64,000 nucleotides of DNA from the IMG/VR virus record IMGVR_UViG_2593339203_000002, positions 1 to 64,000 of that record, one strand, 5' to 3'. Origin of the DNA: a virus. Lineage: Duplodnaviria; Caudoviricetes. The notes under the pieces are model-generated. The model saw only the letters and a list, made by a program, of their open reading frames with translations, made no database searches and was not told the DNA's origin. Of this stretch, positions 39,988-44,153 are shown in pieces (position 1 is the stretch's first letter; each line of letters starts with the position of its first letter). The position numbers were made by a program, and so were the translations under genes.

Positions 39988-40584
39988 ATGCCGCCCGCCG
40001 TACACGTGCGCACCGACACCATTCCCCTGGCCGACCTCCAACACTTCCCCGGCAACGCCCGCCGCGGGGACGTGGAGCTCATCCTCTCCAGCCTCAAACG
40101 GAACGGGCAGTACCGCGGCCTGGTGGCCCGTCACGTCCAGCCGGACGGCCCGCTGGTCGTCCTGGCCGGCAACCACACGATGCAAGCCCTCCAGCTTCAC
40201 GGCCCCGGCGCGTGCGACTACCGGACCACCCACCAGGGCGAGGAACGGCCGTGCGGCGTCTGCCACGGGGAGGACTGGTCCCCGTCCGCCCGGTGTGAGG
40301 TGATCATCTGCGACGACGACACCGCCCGCCGCGTGAACCTCATCGACAACCGGGCGTCGGACGTGGGGGAGTACGACCGGGACGCCCTCGCGGAGCTCCT
40401 GTCCTACCTGGAGGAGGACGGGTTCGAGGGCACCGGCTACACGGAGGCCGAGGTCCGGCAACTCGCCCACGCCGTCCCCCCGCTGGAGACCAGCGAGGAG
40501 GAGTTCCCGGCCTACGACGAGGACGTCCCCACGGCCTACACGTGCCCCCGCTGCTCCTACAGCTGGTCGGGGAAGCCGGCATGA
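39988..40584 (+). CDS. ParB/Srx N-terminal-domain protein 2 with C-terminal CPxC
   Basis: Paralogue of 38658-39500; ends TCPRCSYSW; AGGAG RBS. Confidence 0.85.
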   Translation: MPPAVHVRTDTIPLADLQHFPGNARRGDVELILSSLKRNGQYRGLVARHVQPDGPLVVLAGNHTMQALQLHGPGACDYRTTHQGEERPCGVCHGEDWSPSARCEVIICDDDTARRVNLIDNRASDVGEYDRDALAELLSYLEEDGFEGTGYTEAEVRQLAHAVPPLETSEEEFPAYDEDVPTAYTCPRCSYSWSGKPA

Positions 40585-41837
40585 GCCCGCGCCGCGCCCC
40601 ACGGACCCGCCCCTCCAACCGGGCCGTCGTCAAACCGCCCTACCGCGTCCCGACCATGGCCGAGATCGCCGCCCTGCCCTGGAACGGCTTCACCGCCGCC
40701 TCCTCGTTCTCCGGGTGCGGCGGCTCCTCCCTCGGCTATCGCATGGCCGGCTTCCGGATGCGGTGGGCGTCGGAGTTCATCCCGGCCGCGCAGGAGACCT
40801 ACCGGGCCAACGCCCGCCCGTACACCGTCCTGGACACCCGGGACATCCGCGAGGTGACCGCGGAGGACGTCCTCGCGGCGTGCGGCGTGGCCGTGGGGGA
40901 GCTGGACCTCTGGGACGGCAGCCCGCCGTGCGCGTCGTTCTCGACCATGGGCAAGCGCGAAAAGGGCTGGGGCCTGGTCAAGCCGTACTCGGACACCGTC
41001 CAGCGCACCGACGACCTCTTCTTCGAGTACGCCCGTCTCCTCAAGGCACTCCAACCCCGCACGTTCGTCGCGGAGAACGTGAGCGGCCTGGTCAAAGGCA
41101 CCGCGAAGGGCTATTTCCTGGAGATCCTGGCCGCGCTCAAGGCCTGCGGCTACCTGGTGGAGGCCCGCCTCCTGGACGCCTCCCGCCTCGGCGTCCCCCA
41201 GTCCCGGCAGCGGCTCATCTTCGTGGGCGTCCGGGAGGACCTGGACATGCCGCCGGCGTTCCCCCGCCCGCTCCCGTACCAGTACACGGTCCGCGACGCC
41301 CTCCCGGAGCTGCCGCGCCTCGTCCACGACACGTCCGGCGCCCGCGGCCAGGGCGACGTCACCGACCGCCCGTCCCCCGCGATCACCGTCGGCACGGACG
41401 CGATCAACAGCTACCACTTCCGCGTCCTCGACCCCGCCGAGGGCCGGGAGGTCACGCACGACCCGGAGACCGGGAAGAACATCCATATCGGCCGGTACGC
41501 CATCGGGGAGGCCTGGCGCGACACCCCGCCCGGCGGCTCCTCGGAACGGTTCTTCAGCCTGAAGCGGATGGACCCGGACCGGCCGTCCCAGACGATCACC
41601 GCCGAGGGCGGGAACGTCACGAAGGCCTCCGTGACCCACTACGCCGAGGCCCGCAAACTGACGCTCGGCGAGCTCCGGAAGATCGGCGGGTTCCCGGACG
41701 ACTTCCAGCTCACCGGCACCTACGAACAGCGATGGGAGCGCATCGGCCGCGCCGTCCCCCCGGTGATGATGAGCCACATCGCGGCCGCCGTCCGGGACCA
41801 GATCCTCATTCCCCTCCGCGAGCGGGGGGTGATCTGA
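40581..41837 (+). CDS. C5-cytosine DNA methyltransferase family; predicted carboxymethyltransferase
   Basis: FSGCGG (I), GSPPC (IV), ENV (VI), QSRQRL (VIII); motif X reads IGRAVPP instead of GN(A/S)V. Confidence 0.9.
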   Translation: MSPRRAPRTRPSNRAVVKPPYRVPTMAEIAALPWNGFTAASSFSGCGGSSLGYRMAGFRMRWASEFIPAAQETYRANARPYTVLDTRDIREVTAEDVLAACGVAVGELDLWDGSPPCASFSTMGKREKGWGLVKPYSDTVQRTDDLFFEYARLLKALQPRTFVAENVSGLVKGTAKGYFLEILAALKACGYLVEARLLDASRLGVPQSRQRLIFVGVREDLDMPPAFPRPLPYQYTVRDALPELPRLVHDTSGARGQGDVTDRPSPAITVGTDAINSYHFRVLDPAEGREVTHDPETGKNIHIGRYAIGEAWRDTPPGGSSERFFSLKRMDPDRPSQTITAEGGNVTKASVTHYAEARKLTLGELRKIGGFPDDFQLTGTYEQRWERIGRAVPPVMMSHIAAAVRDQILIPLRERGVI

Positions 41838-41839
41838 CC

Positions 41840-43249
41840 GTGTGCGGCATCATCGCGGCCGCCGGCCACCTCGACCTGGCCCCGGCCGTGGAGGCCCTGG
41901 CACACCGGGGCCCGGACGCCGCCGCCGTCGTCCAGGAGTACGGCGTCACCCTCGGCCACACCCGCCTGGCCATCCAGGACCCGGGCTCCCGCTCGGACCA
42001 GCCGTACAGGGACGGCCCCGTGACGCTGGTCTATAACGGGGAACTGTTCAACGCCCCCCGCGTGTGCGCCCTCGTGGAGTCCATGGACCCGCGCCGCAAC
42101 TGGACCACCACGGGGGACACGGAGGTCGTCGCGGCCGCCCTGGCCACGCTCGGCCCGGAGGCGACGCTCCCGGAGCTGGACGGCATGTACGGCCTCGTCT
42201 GGACCGATGCCCGCCGCCCCGGCGTCCTCATGGCAGCCCGGGACCGCCACGGGGAGGTCCCCCTCCACGTCCACCGTGGCGCCCCCGCCCTCATCGCCTC
42301 CGAGCTCAAGGCCTTCCGCGCGCTCGGCCGGCGCTGCGGGAAGGCCGTGGTCGACGTCCCCCCGGGGGAGTGGTGGGAGCTCTACGGCGGCGCCCTGACC
42401 CGCCACGTCTTCCACCGGCTCACCGCCACACCCGCCCCCGGCCTCACCCGAGAGACCGCCGCCGCACAGCTACGCCATGCCCTGGCCCGCGCGGTGGACC
42501 GCCGGGTGATCGCGGACGTGCCGGTGTGCGCGCTCCTCTCCGGCGGCATCGACTCCGCCGCCATCGTCGCCGAGCTGGTCCGGCACCACCCCGGCCTCAC
42601 CACGTACACCGCCGTACTGGACCCGAAGTCGGCGGACCTCCGCCACGCCCGGGAGACCGCCGAAGCGCTCGGCGTGACGCTGGTGGAGGTCCCCGTGGCC
42701 CCGCCCACGGCGGACGACCTCACCCGCGCCCTGGAGGTGATCGAGCAGCCCTCCAAAGCTCAGGTGGAGATCGCCTGGCCGTGCCTGGCCCTCGCGTCCG
42801 CCATGCGCGCGGACGGCTACCGCGTCACCTACACCGGCGAAGGCAGTGACGAGCTATGGGCGTCCTACGGCTTCGCCTACCGCGGCATCCGGGAGGCCGG
42901 CTGGTACCCCTACCGCCGGGACCTCATCGCCGCGCAGGCCGTACGGAACTTCCCCAGGGTGAACAAGGCGTTCATGTCGGCCGGGGTGGAGGGCCGCCTC
43001 CCCTTCCTGGACCCCGACCTGGTCACCCTGGCGCTCTCCATGCCCGAGGCCACCGTCCGGGACGCCGACACCCCCACCGGCCGTAAAGCCGTCCTCTCCG
43101 CCGCCTACCGCGACCGCCTCCCCGCCTCCGTCCTCCGCCGGGCGAAGGTCGCGTTCCAGGACGGCCTAGGCCTGAAACCGATCATCACCAGCGCCCTCCC
43201 CAACCCCGTGAGGTACTACCGTGCAGAACACTTCCGCCTCTACGGCTGA
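41840..43249 (+). CDS. asnB: Asparagine synthetase B-like glutamine amidotransferase
   Basis: GTG start giving MCGII (Ntn Cys); HRGPD, GHTRLAI, YNGE, LSGGIDS, TGEGSDEL, RLPFLD. Confidence 0.9.
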   Translation: MCGIIAAAGHLDLAPAVEALAHRGPDAAAVVQEYGVTLGHTRLAIQDPGSRSDQPYRDGPVTLVYNGELFNAPRVCALVESMDPRRNWTTTGDTEVVAAALATLGPEATLPELDGMYGLVWTDARRPGVLMAARDRHGEVPLHVHRGAPALIASELKAFRALGRRCGKAVVDVPPGEWWELYGGALTRHVFHRLTATPAPGLTRETAAAQLRHALARAVDRRVIADVPVCALLSGGIDSAAIVAELVRHHPGLTTYTAVLDPKSADLRHARETAEALGVTLVEVPVAPPTADDLTRALEVIEQPSKAQVEIAWPCLALASAMRADGYRVTYTGEGSDELWASYGFAYRGIREAGWYPYRRDLIAAQAVRNFPRVNKAFMSAGVEGRLPFLDPDLVTLALSMPEATVRDADTPTGRKAVLSAAYRDRLPASVLRRAKVAFQDGLGLKPIITSALPNPVRYYRAEHFRLYG

Positions 43250-44153
43250 CACCGCCGCCGGCCCGGGGCCCGCTCCGGAGGACGCCGCCCGCTGCCGGTG
43301 CGGCCACCCGAAGGGCGACCACAGCGACCGCCGCGACCACCCGTCATCCCCGACCGTCCCCCGCCGCCCCTGGTGCCACGCCTGTGAGGGCACGTGCGAC
43401 TACGCCCCGCGCGGCCAGGAGCCGGAGGACATCGCGGAGTCCTTCGCCACCGGCGCGTGGGAGTTCACCCCCGCCGTCGTGGACGTCTTCCCCGAGCACG
43501 TCCGCGCCTCCGTCCCGTACTACGACGCCATTCAAGACCTGGTCGCGGAGGCCGCGGACTGGCTCCTCCCGGATGACGGCCTGGTCGCCGACCTCGGCGC
43601 CTCCACCGGGACCACCGTCCACCGCATCGCCCAACGGCACCCCACACGCCAACTCCGCGCCTCCCTCTACGACCAGGAGACCGCCATGCTGGACCGGGCC
43701 GCGGAAACCCTGGCCGGCGTCTCCAACCTCCACGTGGACTACGTCCCGGCCGACATCCGCCGCTCCCCCCTCGGCCACCAGGACGCGAACCTCACCCTGG
43801 CCCTCTTCACCCTCCAGTTCCTCCCCCTGGCCGACCGCGTCCACGTCCTACGCCAGGCTCGCCACGCCGCCGCCTCCACCGGCGCCCTCATCGTCGCCGA
43901 GAAGGTCCGCCCGCCGGACGCCCGCTGGGCGGAGATCGCCGCGGACGCCTCCCACGACTGGAAGGCCGCCCACGGGATCACGGACTCCGCCATCCGCGCG
44001 AAGGCCCGCGCTCTCCGCGGTGTCCTCCAGCCTTACCCGGAGGTCGCCCTCGTCCAGGCCGTCCATGACGCCGGCTGGTGCTGCCCGGAGGTCCTATTCC
44101 GCTGGCACTCCTGGCTCGTCCTCGGCGCGTTCGCCACCCCTACCGGCCTCTAA
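43221..44153 (+). CDS. cmoA: CmoA-like carboxy-SAM synthase with N-terminal Cys/His extension
   Basis: WEF...V.DVF..HVRASVPYY, DLGASTG, FTLQFL, AEK, HDWKAAHG...I..K...L..VL, FRW parallel E. coli CmoA. Confidence 0.75.
   Translation: MQNTSASTADTAAGPGPAPEDAARCRCGHPKGDHSDRRDHPSSPTVPRRPWCHACEGTCDYAPRGQEPEDIAESFATGAWEFTPAVVDVFPEHVRASVPYYDAIQDLVAEAADWLLPDDGLVADLGASTGTTVHRIAQRHPTRQLRASLYDQETAMLDRAAETLAGVSNLHVDYVPADIRRSPLGHQDANLTLALFTLQFLPLADRVHVLRQARHAAASTGALIVAEKVRPPDARWAEIAADASHDWKAAHGITDSAIRAKARALRGVLQPYPEVALVQAVHDAGWCCPEVLFRWHSWLVLGAFATPTGL

What the first reader, a model, noticed from the sequence alone, without database searches (positions are those of the whole stretch)
40581..44153. Putative cytosine hypermodification pathway: Cx-SAM synthase, carboxymethyltransferase and amidotransferase
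Seen: three tightly linked genes directly before the terminases, encoding a C5-MTase, an AsnB-like enzyme and a CmoA-like protein. Established: CmoA makes carboxy-SAM from SAM and prephenate; AsnB enzymes adenylate a carboxylate and amidate it with glutamine-derived ammonia; a C5-MTase can transfer carboxymethyl from Cx-SAM when the motif X Asn is replaced by a basic residue (engineered M.MpeI N374K). Inference: SAM -> Cx-SAM -> 5-carboxymethylcytosine in DNA -> 5-carbamoylmethylcytosine, acting as an anti-restriction mark. Amidation could alternatively act on Cx-SAM before transfer. A bulky non-methyl mark could suit Streptomyces hosts with methyl-specific restriction. I recall phage CmoA/MTase pairs being reported recently, so novelty needs a literature check; the AsnB-coupled version in a temperate actinophage is the part most likely to be uncharacterised.
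Basis: partly seen in the sequence, partly recalled or inferred. Interest (0 to 1): 0.95.

Follow-up and report, generated by a model that had tools for sequence, protein, structure and literature searches.

The report
Known phage carboxymethyl-cytosine DNA modification cassette
A Streptomyces prophage carries the recently published three-enzyme system that puts a carboxymethyl group on DNA cytosines and then caps it as an amide, so it is a further member of a known system whose exact end product has still not been measured.

Summary
Three co-oriented, abutting genes lie just before the terminase: a C5-methyltransferase homologue (40581-41837), an AsnB-like glutamine amidotransferase/ligase (41840-43249) and a CmoA-like protein (43221-44153).

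The pathway is already in print. Yang et al., Nat Commun 2025 (PMC12783734) showed CmoA, CmoX and CmoY in Synechococcus phage S-B43: SAM to Cx-SAM, then 5-carboxymethylcytosine in DNA, then an amide.

- The window's methyltransferase matches the SpCmoX crystal structure 8YF3 far better than any true methylase (E 3.8e-61 against 7.5e-23). It has both published CmoX hallmarks, SPPC and the motif X arginine (R390).
- Its ligase is 77% identical to A0A7T0Q3R0, which I found to be gp124 of Streptomyces phage TurkishDelight. The paper names this protein as representative of the glutamine-hydrolysing ligase cluster and predicts ammonia as its substrate. The authors could not get soluble enzyme.
- The window is an integrated TurkishDelight-like prophage with the same ParB-ParB-CmoX-CmoY-CmoA cassette.

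So this is a new member of a known kind. What remains open is the product, expected to be 5-carbamoylmethylcytosine, for which my searches found no report.

The parts
38607..39500 (+). ParB-like protein 1 (accessory, role unknown)
   Evidence: phrog_723 'ParB-like partition protein' 2e-47. No Pfam ParB_N hit. Syntenic with TurkishDelight gp121 'ParB-like nuclease domain protein'.
39988..40584 (+). ParB-like protein 2. Probable ATG at 39988, read by eye from the translation; the frame is open from 39790. Its stop overlaps the CmoX start as ATGA.
   Evidence: phrog_723 6.9e-47. Syntenic with TurkishDelight gp122. A ParB-like gene lies directly upstream of CmoX in 14 of the 17 related viral loci with X-Y-A gene order; one of the three misses has no room upstream.
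40581..41837 (+). CmoX: DNA cytosine C5-carboxymethyltransferase homologue, 418 aa. SPPC at 114-117 (Cys117 nucleophile), ENV 165-167, QSRQR 207-211, motif X G-R-A-V-P-P 389-394 with Arg390.
   Evidence: PF00145 6.4e-53. Best solved relative is 8YF3 SpCmoX at 3.8e-61, against 7.5e-23 for M.HaeIII, with SPPC and the Arg aligned. 40% identical to SpCmoX. S114-C117, E165, R209, R211 and R390 are invariant in 16 of 16 aligned homologues. It is the only PF00145 match in the 96.7-kb record.
41840..43249 (+). CmoY, glutamine-dependent type: N-terminal Ntn glutaminase domain (Cys2, Arg42, Asn66-Gly67-Glu68, Asp93) plus an AMP-forming PP-loop ligase domain (SGGIDS 234-239, GEGSDE 333-338). 469 aa.
   Evidence: GATase_6/7 and Asn_synthase. 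Below the AsnB equivalog cut-offs. phrog_16728 9.3e-101. 1CT9 AsnB 1.8e-34. 77% identical to TurkishDelight gp124 = UniRef100_A0A7T0Q3R0. Catalytic residues invariant in 10 of 10 family members.
43221..44153 (+). CmoA: carboxy-SAM synthase homologue, 310 aa, with a window-specific 50-aa Cys/His-rich insertion (aa 19-68, nt 43275-43424).
   Evidence: TIGR00740 3.8e-28, 98.8 bits against a cut-off of 193.3. phrog_4752 4e-52. 4GEK E. coli CmoA 1.2e-18. Cofactor-contact residues Y101, D124, G126, S128, D151, D178, F200 and E227 are kept. The only in-frame start in the first 85 codons is GTG 43221, and GC3 of the insertion is 0.96.
44154..44240 (.). Intergenic stretch that corresponds to the joined virion genome ends of TurkishDelight. 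The junction is at about 44238-44241.
   Evidence: The window aligns continuously across TurkishDelight's right end and then its left end. So the cassette is the last block of the packaged genome.
44241..46306 (+). Packaging genes that bound the cassette: HTH/small-terminase-like protein (44241-44666) and large terminase (44663-46306).
   Evidence: phrog_2 'terminase large subunit' 8.1e-41. Syntenic with TurkishDelight gp1 and gp2.

Best explanation
This is the DNA hypermodification cassette of an integrated, TurkishDelight-like temperate Streptomyces phage. It belongs to the published CmoA/CmoX/CmoY system.

Step 1 (inferred by homology): CmoA makes carboxy-SAM from SAM and prephenate.

Step 2 (inferred by homology and by the two published sequence hallmarks): CmoX flips out a cytosine in double-stranded phage DNA. 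Cys117 attacks C6, and the carboxymethyl group of Cx-SAM is transferred to C5. Arg390 holds the cofactor's carboxylate. The product is 5-carboxymethylcytosine.

Step 3 (inferred; no enzyme of this ligase type has been assayed): the two-domain CmoY adenylates that carboxylate at its PP-loop site. It amidates it with ammonia released from glutamine by its N-terminal Cys2 glutaminase domain. The product would be 5-carbamoylmethylcytosine.

The likely use is protection of phage DNA from host nucleases. The two ParB-like proteins upstream are conserved accessories of unknown role. The target sequence motif is unknown.

My odds: about 0.9 that this is a CmoA/CmoX/CmoY system; about 0.65 that the final base is the plain amide.
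For: CmoX
- Best solved relative is SpCmoX 8YF3 (3.8e-61), about 38 orders of magnitude better than any methylase. SPPC and the R350-equivalent Arg are aligned, and M.HaeIII has Asn at that column.
- These are the two criteria the paper used to,615 CmoX sequences.
- The hallmark residues are invariant in 16 of 16 homologues.

CmoY
- 77% identical to A0A7T0Q3R0. The paper names this protein as representative of the glutamine-hydrolysing ligase cluster.
- Cys2, Arg42, Asn66, Gly67, Glu68, Asp93 and the PP loop are invariant in 10 of 10 family members, and E. coli AsnB has the same residues at those columns.
- The AsnB columns T-T-I-R carry A-Q-V-E here (A307, Q308, E310 invariant in 10 of 10).
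- K306 and E310 are shared with the verified glycine ligase SpCmoY but not with AsnB.

Linkage
- Among the best 80 viral loci encoding this ligase type, CmoX is seen in 72 and CmoA in 71, always on the same strand (143 of 143 hits).
- Only 2 loci clearly lack both, and 1 is ambiguous.
- Every CmoX not cut by a contig end has SPPC (68 of 72) and the Arg (66 of 72). The rest run off contig ends.
- A natural 818-aa fusion of CmoX with this CmoY exists.

Synteny
- TurkishDelight genes 121-125 have the same order at 83.6% nucleotide identity.

CmoA
- The cofactor-contact residues are kept. Where it departs from E. coli CmoA (R199, N132), the experimentally verified SpCmoA departs in the same way.

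Host lineage
- A bona fide CmoA (over the TIGR00740 cut-off) was found in 1 of 401 sampled genomes of the phylum of an Acidimicrobiaceae MAG, i.e. Actinomycetota. This fits a phage that must bring its own Cx-SAM source.
Against: - No activity was measured for any of the three proteins, and nothing here shows the modified base.
- The CmoA-like protein scores below both curated CmoA cut-offs (98.8 against 193.3 bits; 71.2 against 285).
- It lacks Arg at the column of E. coli R199, the residue that salt-bridges the Cx-SAM carboxylate.
- The authors could not obtain soluble enzyme from the glutamine-type ligase cluster, so ammonia as nucleophile is a prediction.
- Two related loci carry this ligase type without CmoX or CmoA. 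One sits beside a radical SAM gene and a thymidylate-synthase-like gene. The ligase family is therefore not tied exclusively to 5cxmC.
- In the cyanophage subgroup the glutamine-binding Glu is Thr or Cys (N-G-E in only 18 of 70 full-length hits). This shows the glutaminase site is not uniformly canonical in the family, although the window's is.
- The host-lineage sample is phylum-wide and unnamed. I could not test Streptomyces genomes specifically.
- The target-recognition region (about aa 222-323) is not alignable with SpCmoX, so the GC specificity cannot be carried over.
Confidence: 0.8

Rival explanations
1. The system is CmoA/CmoX/CmoY, but the end product is not the plain amide. CmoY might attach another amine, the glutaminase domain might be regulatory or vestigial, or 5-carboxymethylcytosine might stay largely uncapped.
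For: No enzyme of this ligase cluster has been assayed. The verified SpCmoY uses glycine. Cyanophage members of the glutamine-type family have Thr or Cys in place of the glutamine-binding Glu. The paper notes further clusters with unidentified amines.
Against: The window's enzyme keeps every glutaminase residue I checked (Cys2, Arg42, Asn66, Gly67, Glu68, Asp93), invariant in 10 of 10 close family members and matching AsnB. SpCmoY has no such domain at all: 271 aa, Asn_synthase only. A retained, intact Ntn glutaminase is best explained by ammonia supply.
Confidence: 0.14
2. Amidation happens on the cofactor. CmoY converts Cx-SAM to carbamoylmethyl-SAM and CmoX then transfers the carbamoylmethyl group.
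For: It cannot be excluded from sequence alone. AsnB-type enzymes normally act on small-molecule carboxylates.
Against: CmoX keeps the Arg that binds the cofactor's carboxylate in the 8YF3 structure. SpCmoY acts on 5cxmC-bearing DNA in vitro. In 53 of 80 viral loci, this glutamine-type ligase sits beside CmoX and/or CmoA genes at least 70% identical to the verified S-B43 enzymes (44 loci have both), in the slot where S-B43 has its glycine ligase. So the two ligase types look like interchangeable modules acting on the same CmoX product. A CmoX-CmoY fusion exists.
Confidence: 0.04
3. Three unrelated functions lie side by side: an ordinary 5-methylcytosine methylase, an asparagine synthetase carried as a metabolic gene, and a tRNA-modification CmoA.
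For: This is how public annotations name them: 'methyltransferase', 'glutamine amidotransferase domain', 'asparagine synthetase B family protein', 'tRNA methyltransferase'.
Against: Motif X carries Arg, not Asn, and the closest structure is the Cx-SAM-specific enzyme, which does not accept SAM. The AsnB-like protein falls below both AsnB equivalog cut-offs (220.2 against 267.1; 211 against 499) and ends about 85 residues earlier than AsnB. It has A-Q-V-E where AsnB has T-T-I-R; that the two Thr and the Arg serve aspartate binding and activation is recalled from the literature, not from a call. The trio is co-located and co-oriented in at least 71 of 80 related loci.
Confidence: 0.02

Closest known systems
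CmoA/CmoX/CmoY of Synechococcus phage S-B43 (Yang et al., Nat Commun 2025, PMC12783734; structure 8YF3)
   Same: The same three enzyme families are clustered. CmoX is 40% identical to SpCmoX, with SPPC, ENV, QxRxR and the motif X Arg. CmoA shares SpCmoA's variant pattern at the carboxylate-binding helix. The ligase shares the PP loop and the K306/E310 columns with SpCmoY.
   Different: Gene order is X-Y-A here and A-Y-X there. SpCmoY is a 271-aa single-domain glycine ligase (phrog_26038). The window's CmoY is a 469-aa two-domain enzyme with a glutaminase domain (phrog_16728). The CmoX target-recognition region is not alignable, so the GC motif cannot be assumed. The host is Streptomyces and the phage is temperate with ParB-like partners; S-B43 is a cyanomyovirus.
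Streptomyces phage TurkishDelight genes 121-125 (NC_073473); gp124 = A0A7T0Q3R0
   Same: The same five-gene cassette (ParB, ParB, CmoX, CmoY, CmoA) lies at the right genome end next to the terminase. Identity is 83.6% at nucleotide level over 96% of the stretch. Protein identities are 87% (CmoX), 77% (CmoY) and 81% (CmoA). gp124 is the paper's named representative of the glutamine-hydrolysing ligase cluster.
   Different: The window's copy is integrated in a chromosome. Its CmoA has a 50-aa Cys/His-rich insertion that TurkishDelight lacks. No modification chemistry is reported for TurkishDelight either; a full-text search for its name found 0 papers.
Engineered M.MpeI N374K carboxymethyltransferase
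   Same: A basic residue replaces the motif X Asn so that Cx-SAM is accepted, as the paper's Discussion states.
   Different: It is engineered, uses Lys rather than Arg, targets CG, and has no partner synthase or ligase. I did not align it here.
E. coli CmoA/CmoB (tRNA cmo5U34 pathway)
   Same: The CmoA fold and most cofactor contacts are kept; identity to E. coli CmoA is 28%.
   Different: There is no CmoB partner. The acceptor is DNA cytosine through a C5-MTase homologue. R199 and N132 are not kept at their columns. The score is below the TIGR00740 cut-off.
E. coli asparagine synthetase B (1CT9)
   Same: Two-domain architecture, the Ntn glutaminase residues, the PP loop and the SGEGSDE-type motif are shared.
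   Different: Identity is 29%. The protein falls below the equivalog cut-offs and ends about 85 residues earlier. The T-T-I-R columns carry A-Q-V-E, and the column of AsnB's Asp in its D-C-A-R-A-N-K stretch carries Asn370. The predicted substrate is a DNA-borne carboxylate, not aspartate.

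Membership tests
CmoX (DNA cytosine C5-carboxymethyltransferase, Yang 2025) | C5-MTase fold with the catalytic motifs (FxGxGG, PC nucleophile, ENV, QxRxR) | tested here: met
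   PF00145 6.4e-53. FSGCGG 43-48, Cys117, ENV 165-167, QSRQR 207-211. Invariant in 16 of 16 homologues.
CmoX (DNA cytosine C5-carboxymethyltransferase, Yang 2025) | 'SPPC' form of motif IV (S95-C98 of SpCmoX) | tested here: met
   SPPC at 114-117, aligned with SPPC of 8YF3.
CmoX (DNA cytosine C5-carboxymethyltransferase, Yang 2025) | Arg at the position of SpCmoX R350 (motif X Asn in true methylases), which binds the Cx-SAM carboxylate | tested here: met
   R390 aligns with R350 of 8YF3. M.HaeIII has Asn in that column.
CmoX (DNA cytosine C5-carboxymethyltransferase, Yang 2025) | Uses Cx-SAM and not SAM; product is 5-carboxymethyl-dC | not testable with these tools
   Needs an enzyme assay or nucleoside LC-MS.
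CmoA (carboxy-SAM synthase, TIGR00740 / NF011995) | Score over NCBIfam's curated cut-off | tested here: not met
   98.8 bits against 193.3, and 71.2 against 285. On DNA, 99.3 bits, not over the cut-off.
CmoA (carboxy-SAM synthase, TIGR00740 / NF011995) | Cofactor-contact residues of E. coli CmoA listed by Byrne 2013 (Y39, D62, G64, S66, D89, N90, D117, N132, F137; also E164) | tested here: inconclusive
   Y101, D124, G126, S128, D151, D178, F200 and E227 are kept. N90 is Gln and N132 is Leu. The verified SpCmoA also has Leu at both columns.
CmoA (carboxy-SAM synthase, TIGR00740 / NF011995) | Arg199 salt bridge to the cofactor's carboxylate (Byrne 2013) | tested here: inconclusive
   The column holds Ala in the window. 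In a 25-sequence alignment there are two patterns. One is K-R-x-x-L-E (E. coli type). The other is K-x-[R/K]-x-L-[R/K]. The window (K-A-R-A-L-R, 261-266) and the experimentally verified SpCmoA (K-E-K-E-L-R) both have the second. Whether the shifted Arg reaches the carboxylate needs a structure.
CmoA (carboxy-SAM synthase, TIGR00740 / NF011995) | Makes Cx-SAM from SAM and prephenate | not testable with these tools
   Needs an enzyme assay.
CmoY, glutamine-hydrolysing ligase cluster (representative A0A7T0Q3R0) | Sequence membership in the cluster (the paper's network threshold is about 30% identity) | tested here: met
   77% identical over 100% of its length to P0014 = UniRef100_A0A7T0Q3R0 = TurkishDelight gp124.
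CmoY, glutamine-hydrolysing ligase cluster (representative A0A7T0Q3R0) | AMP-forming PP-loop ligase domain | tested here: met
   PF00733 3.9e-44. SGGIDS 234-239 and GEGSDE 333-338.
CmoY, glutamine-hydrolysing ligase cluster (representative A0A7T0Q3R0) | Intact glutamine-hydrolysing (Ntn) domain | tested here: met
   GATase_6 7e-24 and GATase_7 1.4e-19. Cys2, Arg42, Asn66-Gly67-Glu68 and Asp93 align with the AsnB residues. That these are AsnB's catalytic and glutamine-binding residues is recalled knowledge; the columns are from the calls.
CmoY, glutamine-hydrolysing ligase cluster (representative A0A7T0Q3R0) | Encoded next to CmoX and CmoA | tested here: met
   The genes abut in the window. CmoX is seen in 72 of 80 and CmoA in 71 of 80 related viral loci.
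CmoY, glutamine-hydrolysing ligase cluster (representative A0A7T0Q3R0) | Amidates 5cxmC in DNA with glutamine-derived ammonia | not testable with these tools
   Not shown in print either; the authors report insoluble protein.
Asparagine synthetase B (TIGR01536 / NF006949) | Score over the equivalog cut-offs | tested here: not met
   220.2 against 267.1, and 211 against 499.
Asparagine synthetase B (TIGR01536 / NF006949) | Aspartate-binding/activating residues (T322, T323, R325; function recalled from the literature) | tested here: not met
   Those columns hold Ala307, Gln308 and Glu310, invariant in 10 of 10 family members.

The most novel reading that the evidence does not exclude
The glutamine-dependent CmoY of this prophage and of cultured phage TurkishDelight makes 5-carbamoylmethylcytosine. 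My searches found no report of this DNA base. On this reading the ligase gene is a swappable module that sets the amide: close relatives of S-B43 carry this type in place of the glycine ligase. The conserved ParB-like pair would load or target the modification enzymes on phage DNA just before packaging.
Probability: 0.55. Interest if true: 0.5.

Novelty: new member of a known kind. Interest (0 to 1): 0.3.

Why it matters
The biology was published in December 2025, so the window adds a member rather than a mechanism.

Three points have some practical value.
- The paper's unnamed representative of the unassayed glutamine-type ligase cluster turns out to be a protein of a cultured, temperate Streptomyces phage. 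The predicted amide could therefore be looked for directly in virion DNA, without needing soluble enzyme.
- There are over a hundred homologues at 48-88% identity among the 120 listed, including this one. They are alternatives to the insoluble protein.
- The conserved ParB-like pair, the CmoX-CmoY fusion and the ligase swap among cyanophages give testable hints on how the steps are coupled.

Tried and rejected
- The genome-contig scan with the CmoY alignment was swamped by ordinary AsnB genes. The best 80 were all 23-35% identical and none was a Streptomyces prophage. Because of this I could not obtain a Streptomyces genome handle, and I tested the host lineage for CmoA only at phylum level.
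- Pfam did not recognise the two ParB-like proteins. PHROGs did.
- Sequencing runs: no RNA holder listed, and no run held half of the words or more. I therefore did not use read laying. Nothing about expression in the lysogen can be said.
- The promoter/terminator scan of 37500-44800 found 0 promoter-like sites and 1 terminator-like site on the minus strand. This is no more than in shuffles, so the operon limits are not defined.
- I considered whether the CmoA N-terminal extension is a mis-called start. I rejected this because GTG 43221 is the only in-frame start in the first 85 codons and GC3 of the insertion is 0.96.
- I considered carrying SpCmoX's GC specificity over to the window's enzyme. 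I rejected this because the target-recognition region does not align.
- Literature: 'TurkishDelight' gave 0 papers. Six spellings of carbamoylmethyl-cytosine or -deoxycytidine gave 3 papers, all irrelevant. Searches for CmoX/carboxymethyltransferase/phage, Cx-SAM/bacteriophage and 5cxmC/5gcxmC from 2025 on found no report of the amide or of the glutamine-type ligase's activity beyond PMC12783734. The library does not hold most subscription-journal papers.
- What I read. PMC12783734: abstract and outline, all of Results, Discussion and passages. PMC3663124 (Byrne 2013): passages only. All other papers: search listings only. I did not open the supplements of PMC12783734 (Supplementary Table 1 and Fig. 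8 on ligase active sites); they may already describe residues that I report for the glutamine-type cluster.

Full report
**What is there.** On the + strand of a 73% G+C window lie three abutting genes.
- A C5-cytosine methyltransferase homologue: 40581-41837, 418 aa.
- An AsnB-like protein: 41840-43249, 469 aa, beginning M-C-G.
- A CmoA-like protein: 43221-44153, 310 aa.

The first starts on the stop of an upstream ParB-like gene (ATGA). The second starts 2 nt after the first ends. The third overlaps the second by 29 nt. Pfam, NCBIfam and PHROGs agree on the families. Downstream come an 87-nt gap, an HTH protein and the large terminase.

**Where it lies.** The window is part of a 96,744-bp record classed as a provirus and estimated complete. 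A tyrosine integrase sits at the record's far end. The window's own AsnB-like protein is on record from an 8.27-Mb contig.

The nearest named relative is the temperate Streptomyces phage TurkishDelight (93.6 kb; integrase, excise, repressor). It matches at about 82% nucleotide identity on both sides of the cassette and at 83.6% over 96% of the cassette itself. TurkishDelight genes 121-125 are annotated ParB-like, ParB-like, methyltransferase, glutamine amidotransferase domain and methyltransferase. This is the same five genes in the same order. They are the last genes of the virion genome. The window runs straight through the joined TurkishDelight ends at about 44238-44241.

**The literature.** A full-text search led to Yang et al., Nat Commun 2025 (PMC12783734). 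I read its abstract, all of Results and the Discussion.

In Synechococcus phage S-B43 the paper shows the following.
- A phage CmoA makes Cx-SAM.
- A C5-MTase homologue, CmoX, transfers the carboxymethyl group to cytosine in GC sites of double-stranded DNA.
- An asparagine-synthetase homologue, CmoY, ligates glycine to the new carboxylate with ATP.
- Virion DNA carries the glycine amide and no free 5cxmC.

The crystal structure 8YF3 shows Arg350 holding the cofactor's carboxylate where M.HhaI has Asn304. The wild-type enzyme accepts only Cx-SAM.

The authors then collected 5,615 CmoX candidates defined by the SPPC motif and R350. On the same contigs they found 4,257 CmoA, 2,251 ligases and 1,660 ParBc proteins. 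[quoted passage not shown] Attempts to obtain soluble enzyme failed.

**CmoX membership.**
- The window's methyltransferase finds 8YF3 at E 3.8e-61. The next chain, M.HaeIII, is at 7.5e-23.
- SPPC (114-117) aligns with SPPC. G-R-A-V-P-P (389-394) aligns with the G-R-M-V-P-P of SpCmoX. HaeIII has G-N-A-V-P there.
- Identity to SpCmoX is 40%.
- In 16 aligned homologues, S114-C117, E165-V167, Q207, R209, R211, G389, R390 and V392-P394 are invariant.
- The region between motifs VIII and IX is longer than in SpCmoX and does not align. The target motif is therefore unknown.

**CmoY membership.**
- A search of the large protein collection gave 1,250 relatives at E 1e-10 or better among 8,000 scored candidates. 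Those carrying an organism name are from Streptomyces, Nonomuraea, Microbispora and Streptosporangium, and most are labelled asparagine synthetase B.
- The TurkishDelight protein is 77% identical. An exact look-up shows that it is UniRef100_A0A7T0Q3R0. So the window's enzyme is an orthologue of the very protein the paper names.
- Aligned with E. coli AsnB, the family keeps Cys2, Arg42, Asn66-Gly67-Glu68 and Asp93. These are the columns of AsnB's nucleophile and glutamine-binding residues; that role is recalled knowledge. It also keeps the PP loop and the G-E-G-S-D-E motif.
- It has A-Q-V-E where AsnB has T-T-I-R, ends about 85 residues earlier, and scores below both AsnB equivalog cut-offs.
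- SpCmoY is only 271 aa with no glutaminase domain. Yet it shares K306 and E310 with the glutamine-type family, against AsnB.

**CmoA membership.** The evidence here is weaker.
- The protein scores 98.8 bits against a cut-off of 193.3.
- Most cofactor contacts listed by Byrne et al. 2013 (passages read) are kept. The column of Arg199, the salt-bridge partner of the carboxylate, holds Ala.
- A 25-sequence alignment shows two patterns on that helix. One is K-R-x-x-L-E, as in E. coli and in the one bona fide actinobacterial CmoA. The other is K-x-[R/K]-x-L-[R/K].
- The window (K-A-R-A-L-R) and SpCmoA (K-E-K-E-L-R) both have the second pattern. SpCmoA is the more active Cx-SAM synthase in the paper.
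- I therefore do not count the missing R199 against function. I mark this feature as inconclusive.

**Linkage.**
- A scan of IMG/VR with the family alignment found 412 relatives among 598 matched stretches.
- tblastn found CmoX in 72 and CmoA in 71 of the 80, all 143 hits on the ligase's strand.
- Of the 8 loci without CmoX and the 9 without CmoA, all but L024, L027 and the ambiguous L083 are cut by a contig end on the side where the gene would lie.
- Of the 72 CmoX hits, 68 show SPPC and 66 show the Arg. The rest run off contig ends.
- Gene orders are A-Y-X (45), X-Y-A (17) and Y-X-A (4), plus 14 partial.
- A ParB-like gene lies just upstream of CmoX in 14 of the 17 X-Y-A loci.
- One 818-aa protein fuses CmoX to this CmoY.

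**Order of the steps.** In 53 of the 80 loci, CmoX and/or CmoA are at least 70% identical to the S-B43 enzymes; 44 loci have both. The ligase in these loci is the glutamine type, 38-42% identical to the window's. Near-identical, biochemically defined CmoA and CmoX thus pair with either ligase. This argues that both ligases act on the same CmoX product in DNA, and not on the cofactor. The retained Arg390 points the same way. In that cyanophage subgroup the Glu of N-G-E is Thr or Cys. The window's enzyme has the canonical Glu.

**Host supply.** TIGR00740 was over its cut-off in 1 of 401 genomes sampled evenly from the phylum of an Acidimicrobiaceae MAG, which is Actinomycetota. Matches at E 1e-12 or better occurred in 9 of the 401. 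The result fits, but does not prove, a host without Cx-SAM.

**Verdict.** This is a further member of a published phage DNA hypermodification system, in the sub-type whose chemistry is predicted but unmeasured. Those notes are not independent evidence. I checked the first three myself.

Noticed in passing
L006 (Gordonia phage Evaa OP434461) 1-5649: Evaa encodes a CmoA-like protein (gp5, 49% identical to the window's) next to its terminase and behind two ParB-domain genes. Its whole 61-kb genome has no PF00145 match. Its gp2 is a ParB-N domain fused to a domain of unknown family (phrog_5475; no Pfam methylase hit, no PDB hit). A Cx-SAM source without a recognisable C5-MTase could mean a different kind of carboxymethyl acceptor enzyme. 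The 2025 paper says it found no N6 or N4 candidates.
   Followed up: partly
L028-L058, L060-L075, L082, L084-L088 (IMG/VR contigs): 53 viral contigs carry CmoX and/or CmoA at least 70% identical to those of S-B43. In the slot where S-B43 has its 271-aa glycine ligase they carry a full-length glutamine-type CmoY. This looks like a ligase swap between close relatives. In this subgroup the glutaminase N-G-E motif reads N-G-T or N-G-C.
   Followed up: partly
L024 7001-12297 (IMG/VR contig): A glutamine-type CmoY homologue (45% identical) has no CmoX or CmoA within 7 kb. It is followed by a radical SAM protein, a sliding-clamp-like protein and a thymidylate-synthase-like protein. This may be a different pyrimidine modification route using the same amidating enzyme. 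L027 also lacks CmoX and CmoA.
   Followed up: partly
window 43275-43424: The window's CmoA has a 50-aa insertion rich in Cys and His (C25, C27, H29, C52, H53, C55, C59). It is absent from TurkishDelight gp125, Evaa gp5 and the other homologues examined. It is in frame, with coding-like GC3 of 0.96. It could be a small metal-binding module; its function is unknown.
   Followed up: partly
window 39543-39821, minus strand: A 92-aa ORF lies antisense between the two ParB-like genes. It matches only PHROG families of unknown function (phrog_1048 9.2e-17, phrog_872 6.6e-14). An earlier first-reader note calls it Tad2-like; I did not test that.
   Followed up: partly
P0115 (818 aa, metagenome assembly): A single protein joins a CmoX-type C5-MTase domain (aa 27-212 matched) to a glutamine-type CmoY (GATase 381-509, Asn_synthase 564-710), in the same order as the window's adjacent genes.
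   Followed up: partly
window 44001-44018 (CmoA aa 261-266) and the 25-sequence alignment: CmoA homologues fall into two patterns at the helix that binds the cofactor's carboxylate: K-R-x-x-L-E and K-x-[R/K]-x-L-[R/K]. The Arg seems to have moved by one and four positions together with loss of the Glu. The phage enzymes, including the verified SpCmoA, mostly have the second pattern.
   Followed up: partly
window 44238-44241: The point that corresponds to the joined virion ends of TurkishDelight lies immediately before the start codon of the HTH/small-terminase-like gene. The modification cassette is therefore the terminal block of the packaged genome.
   Followed up: yes
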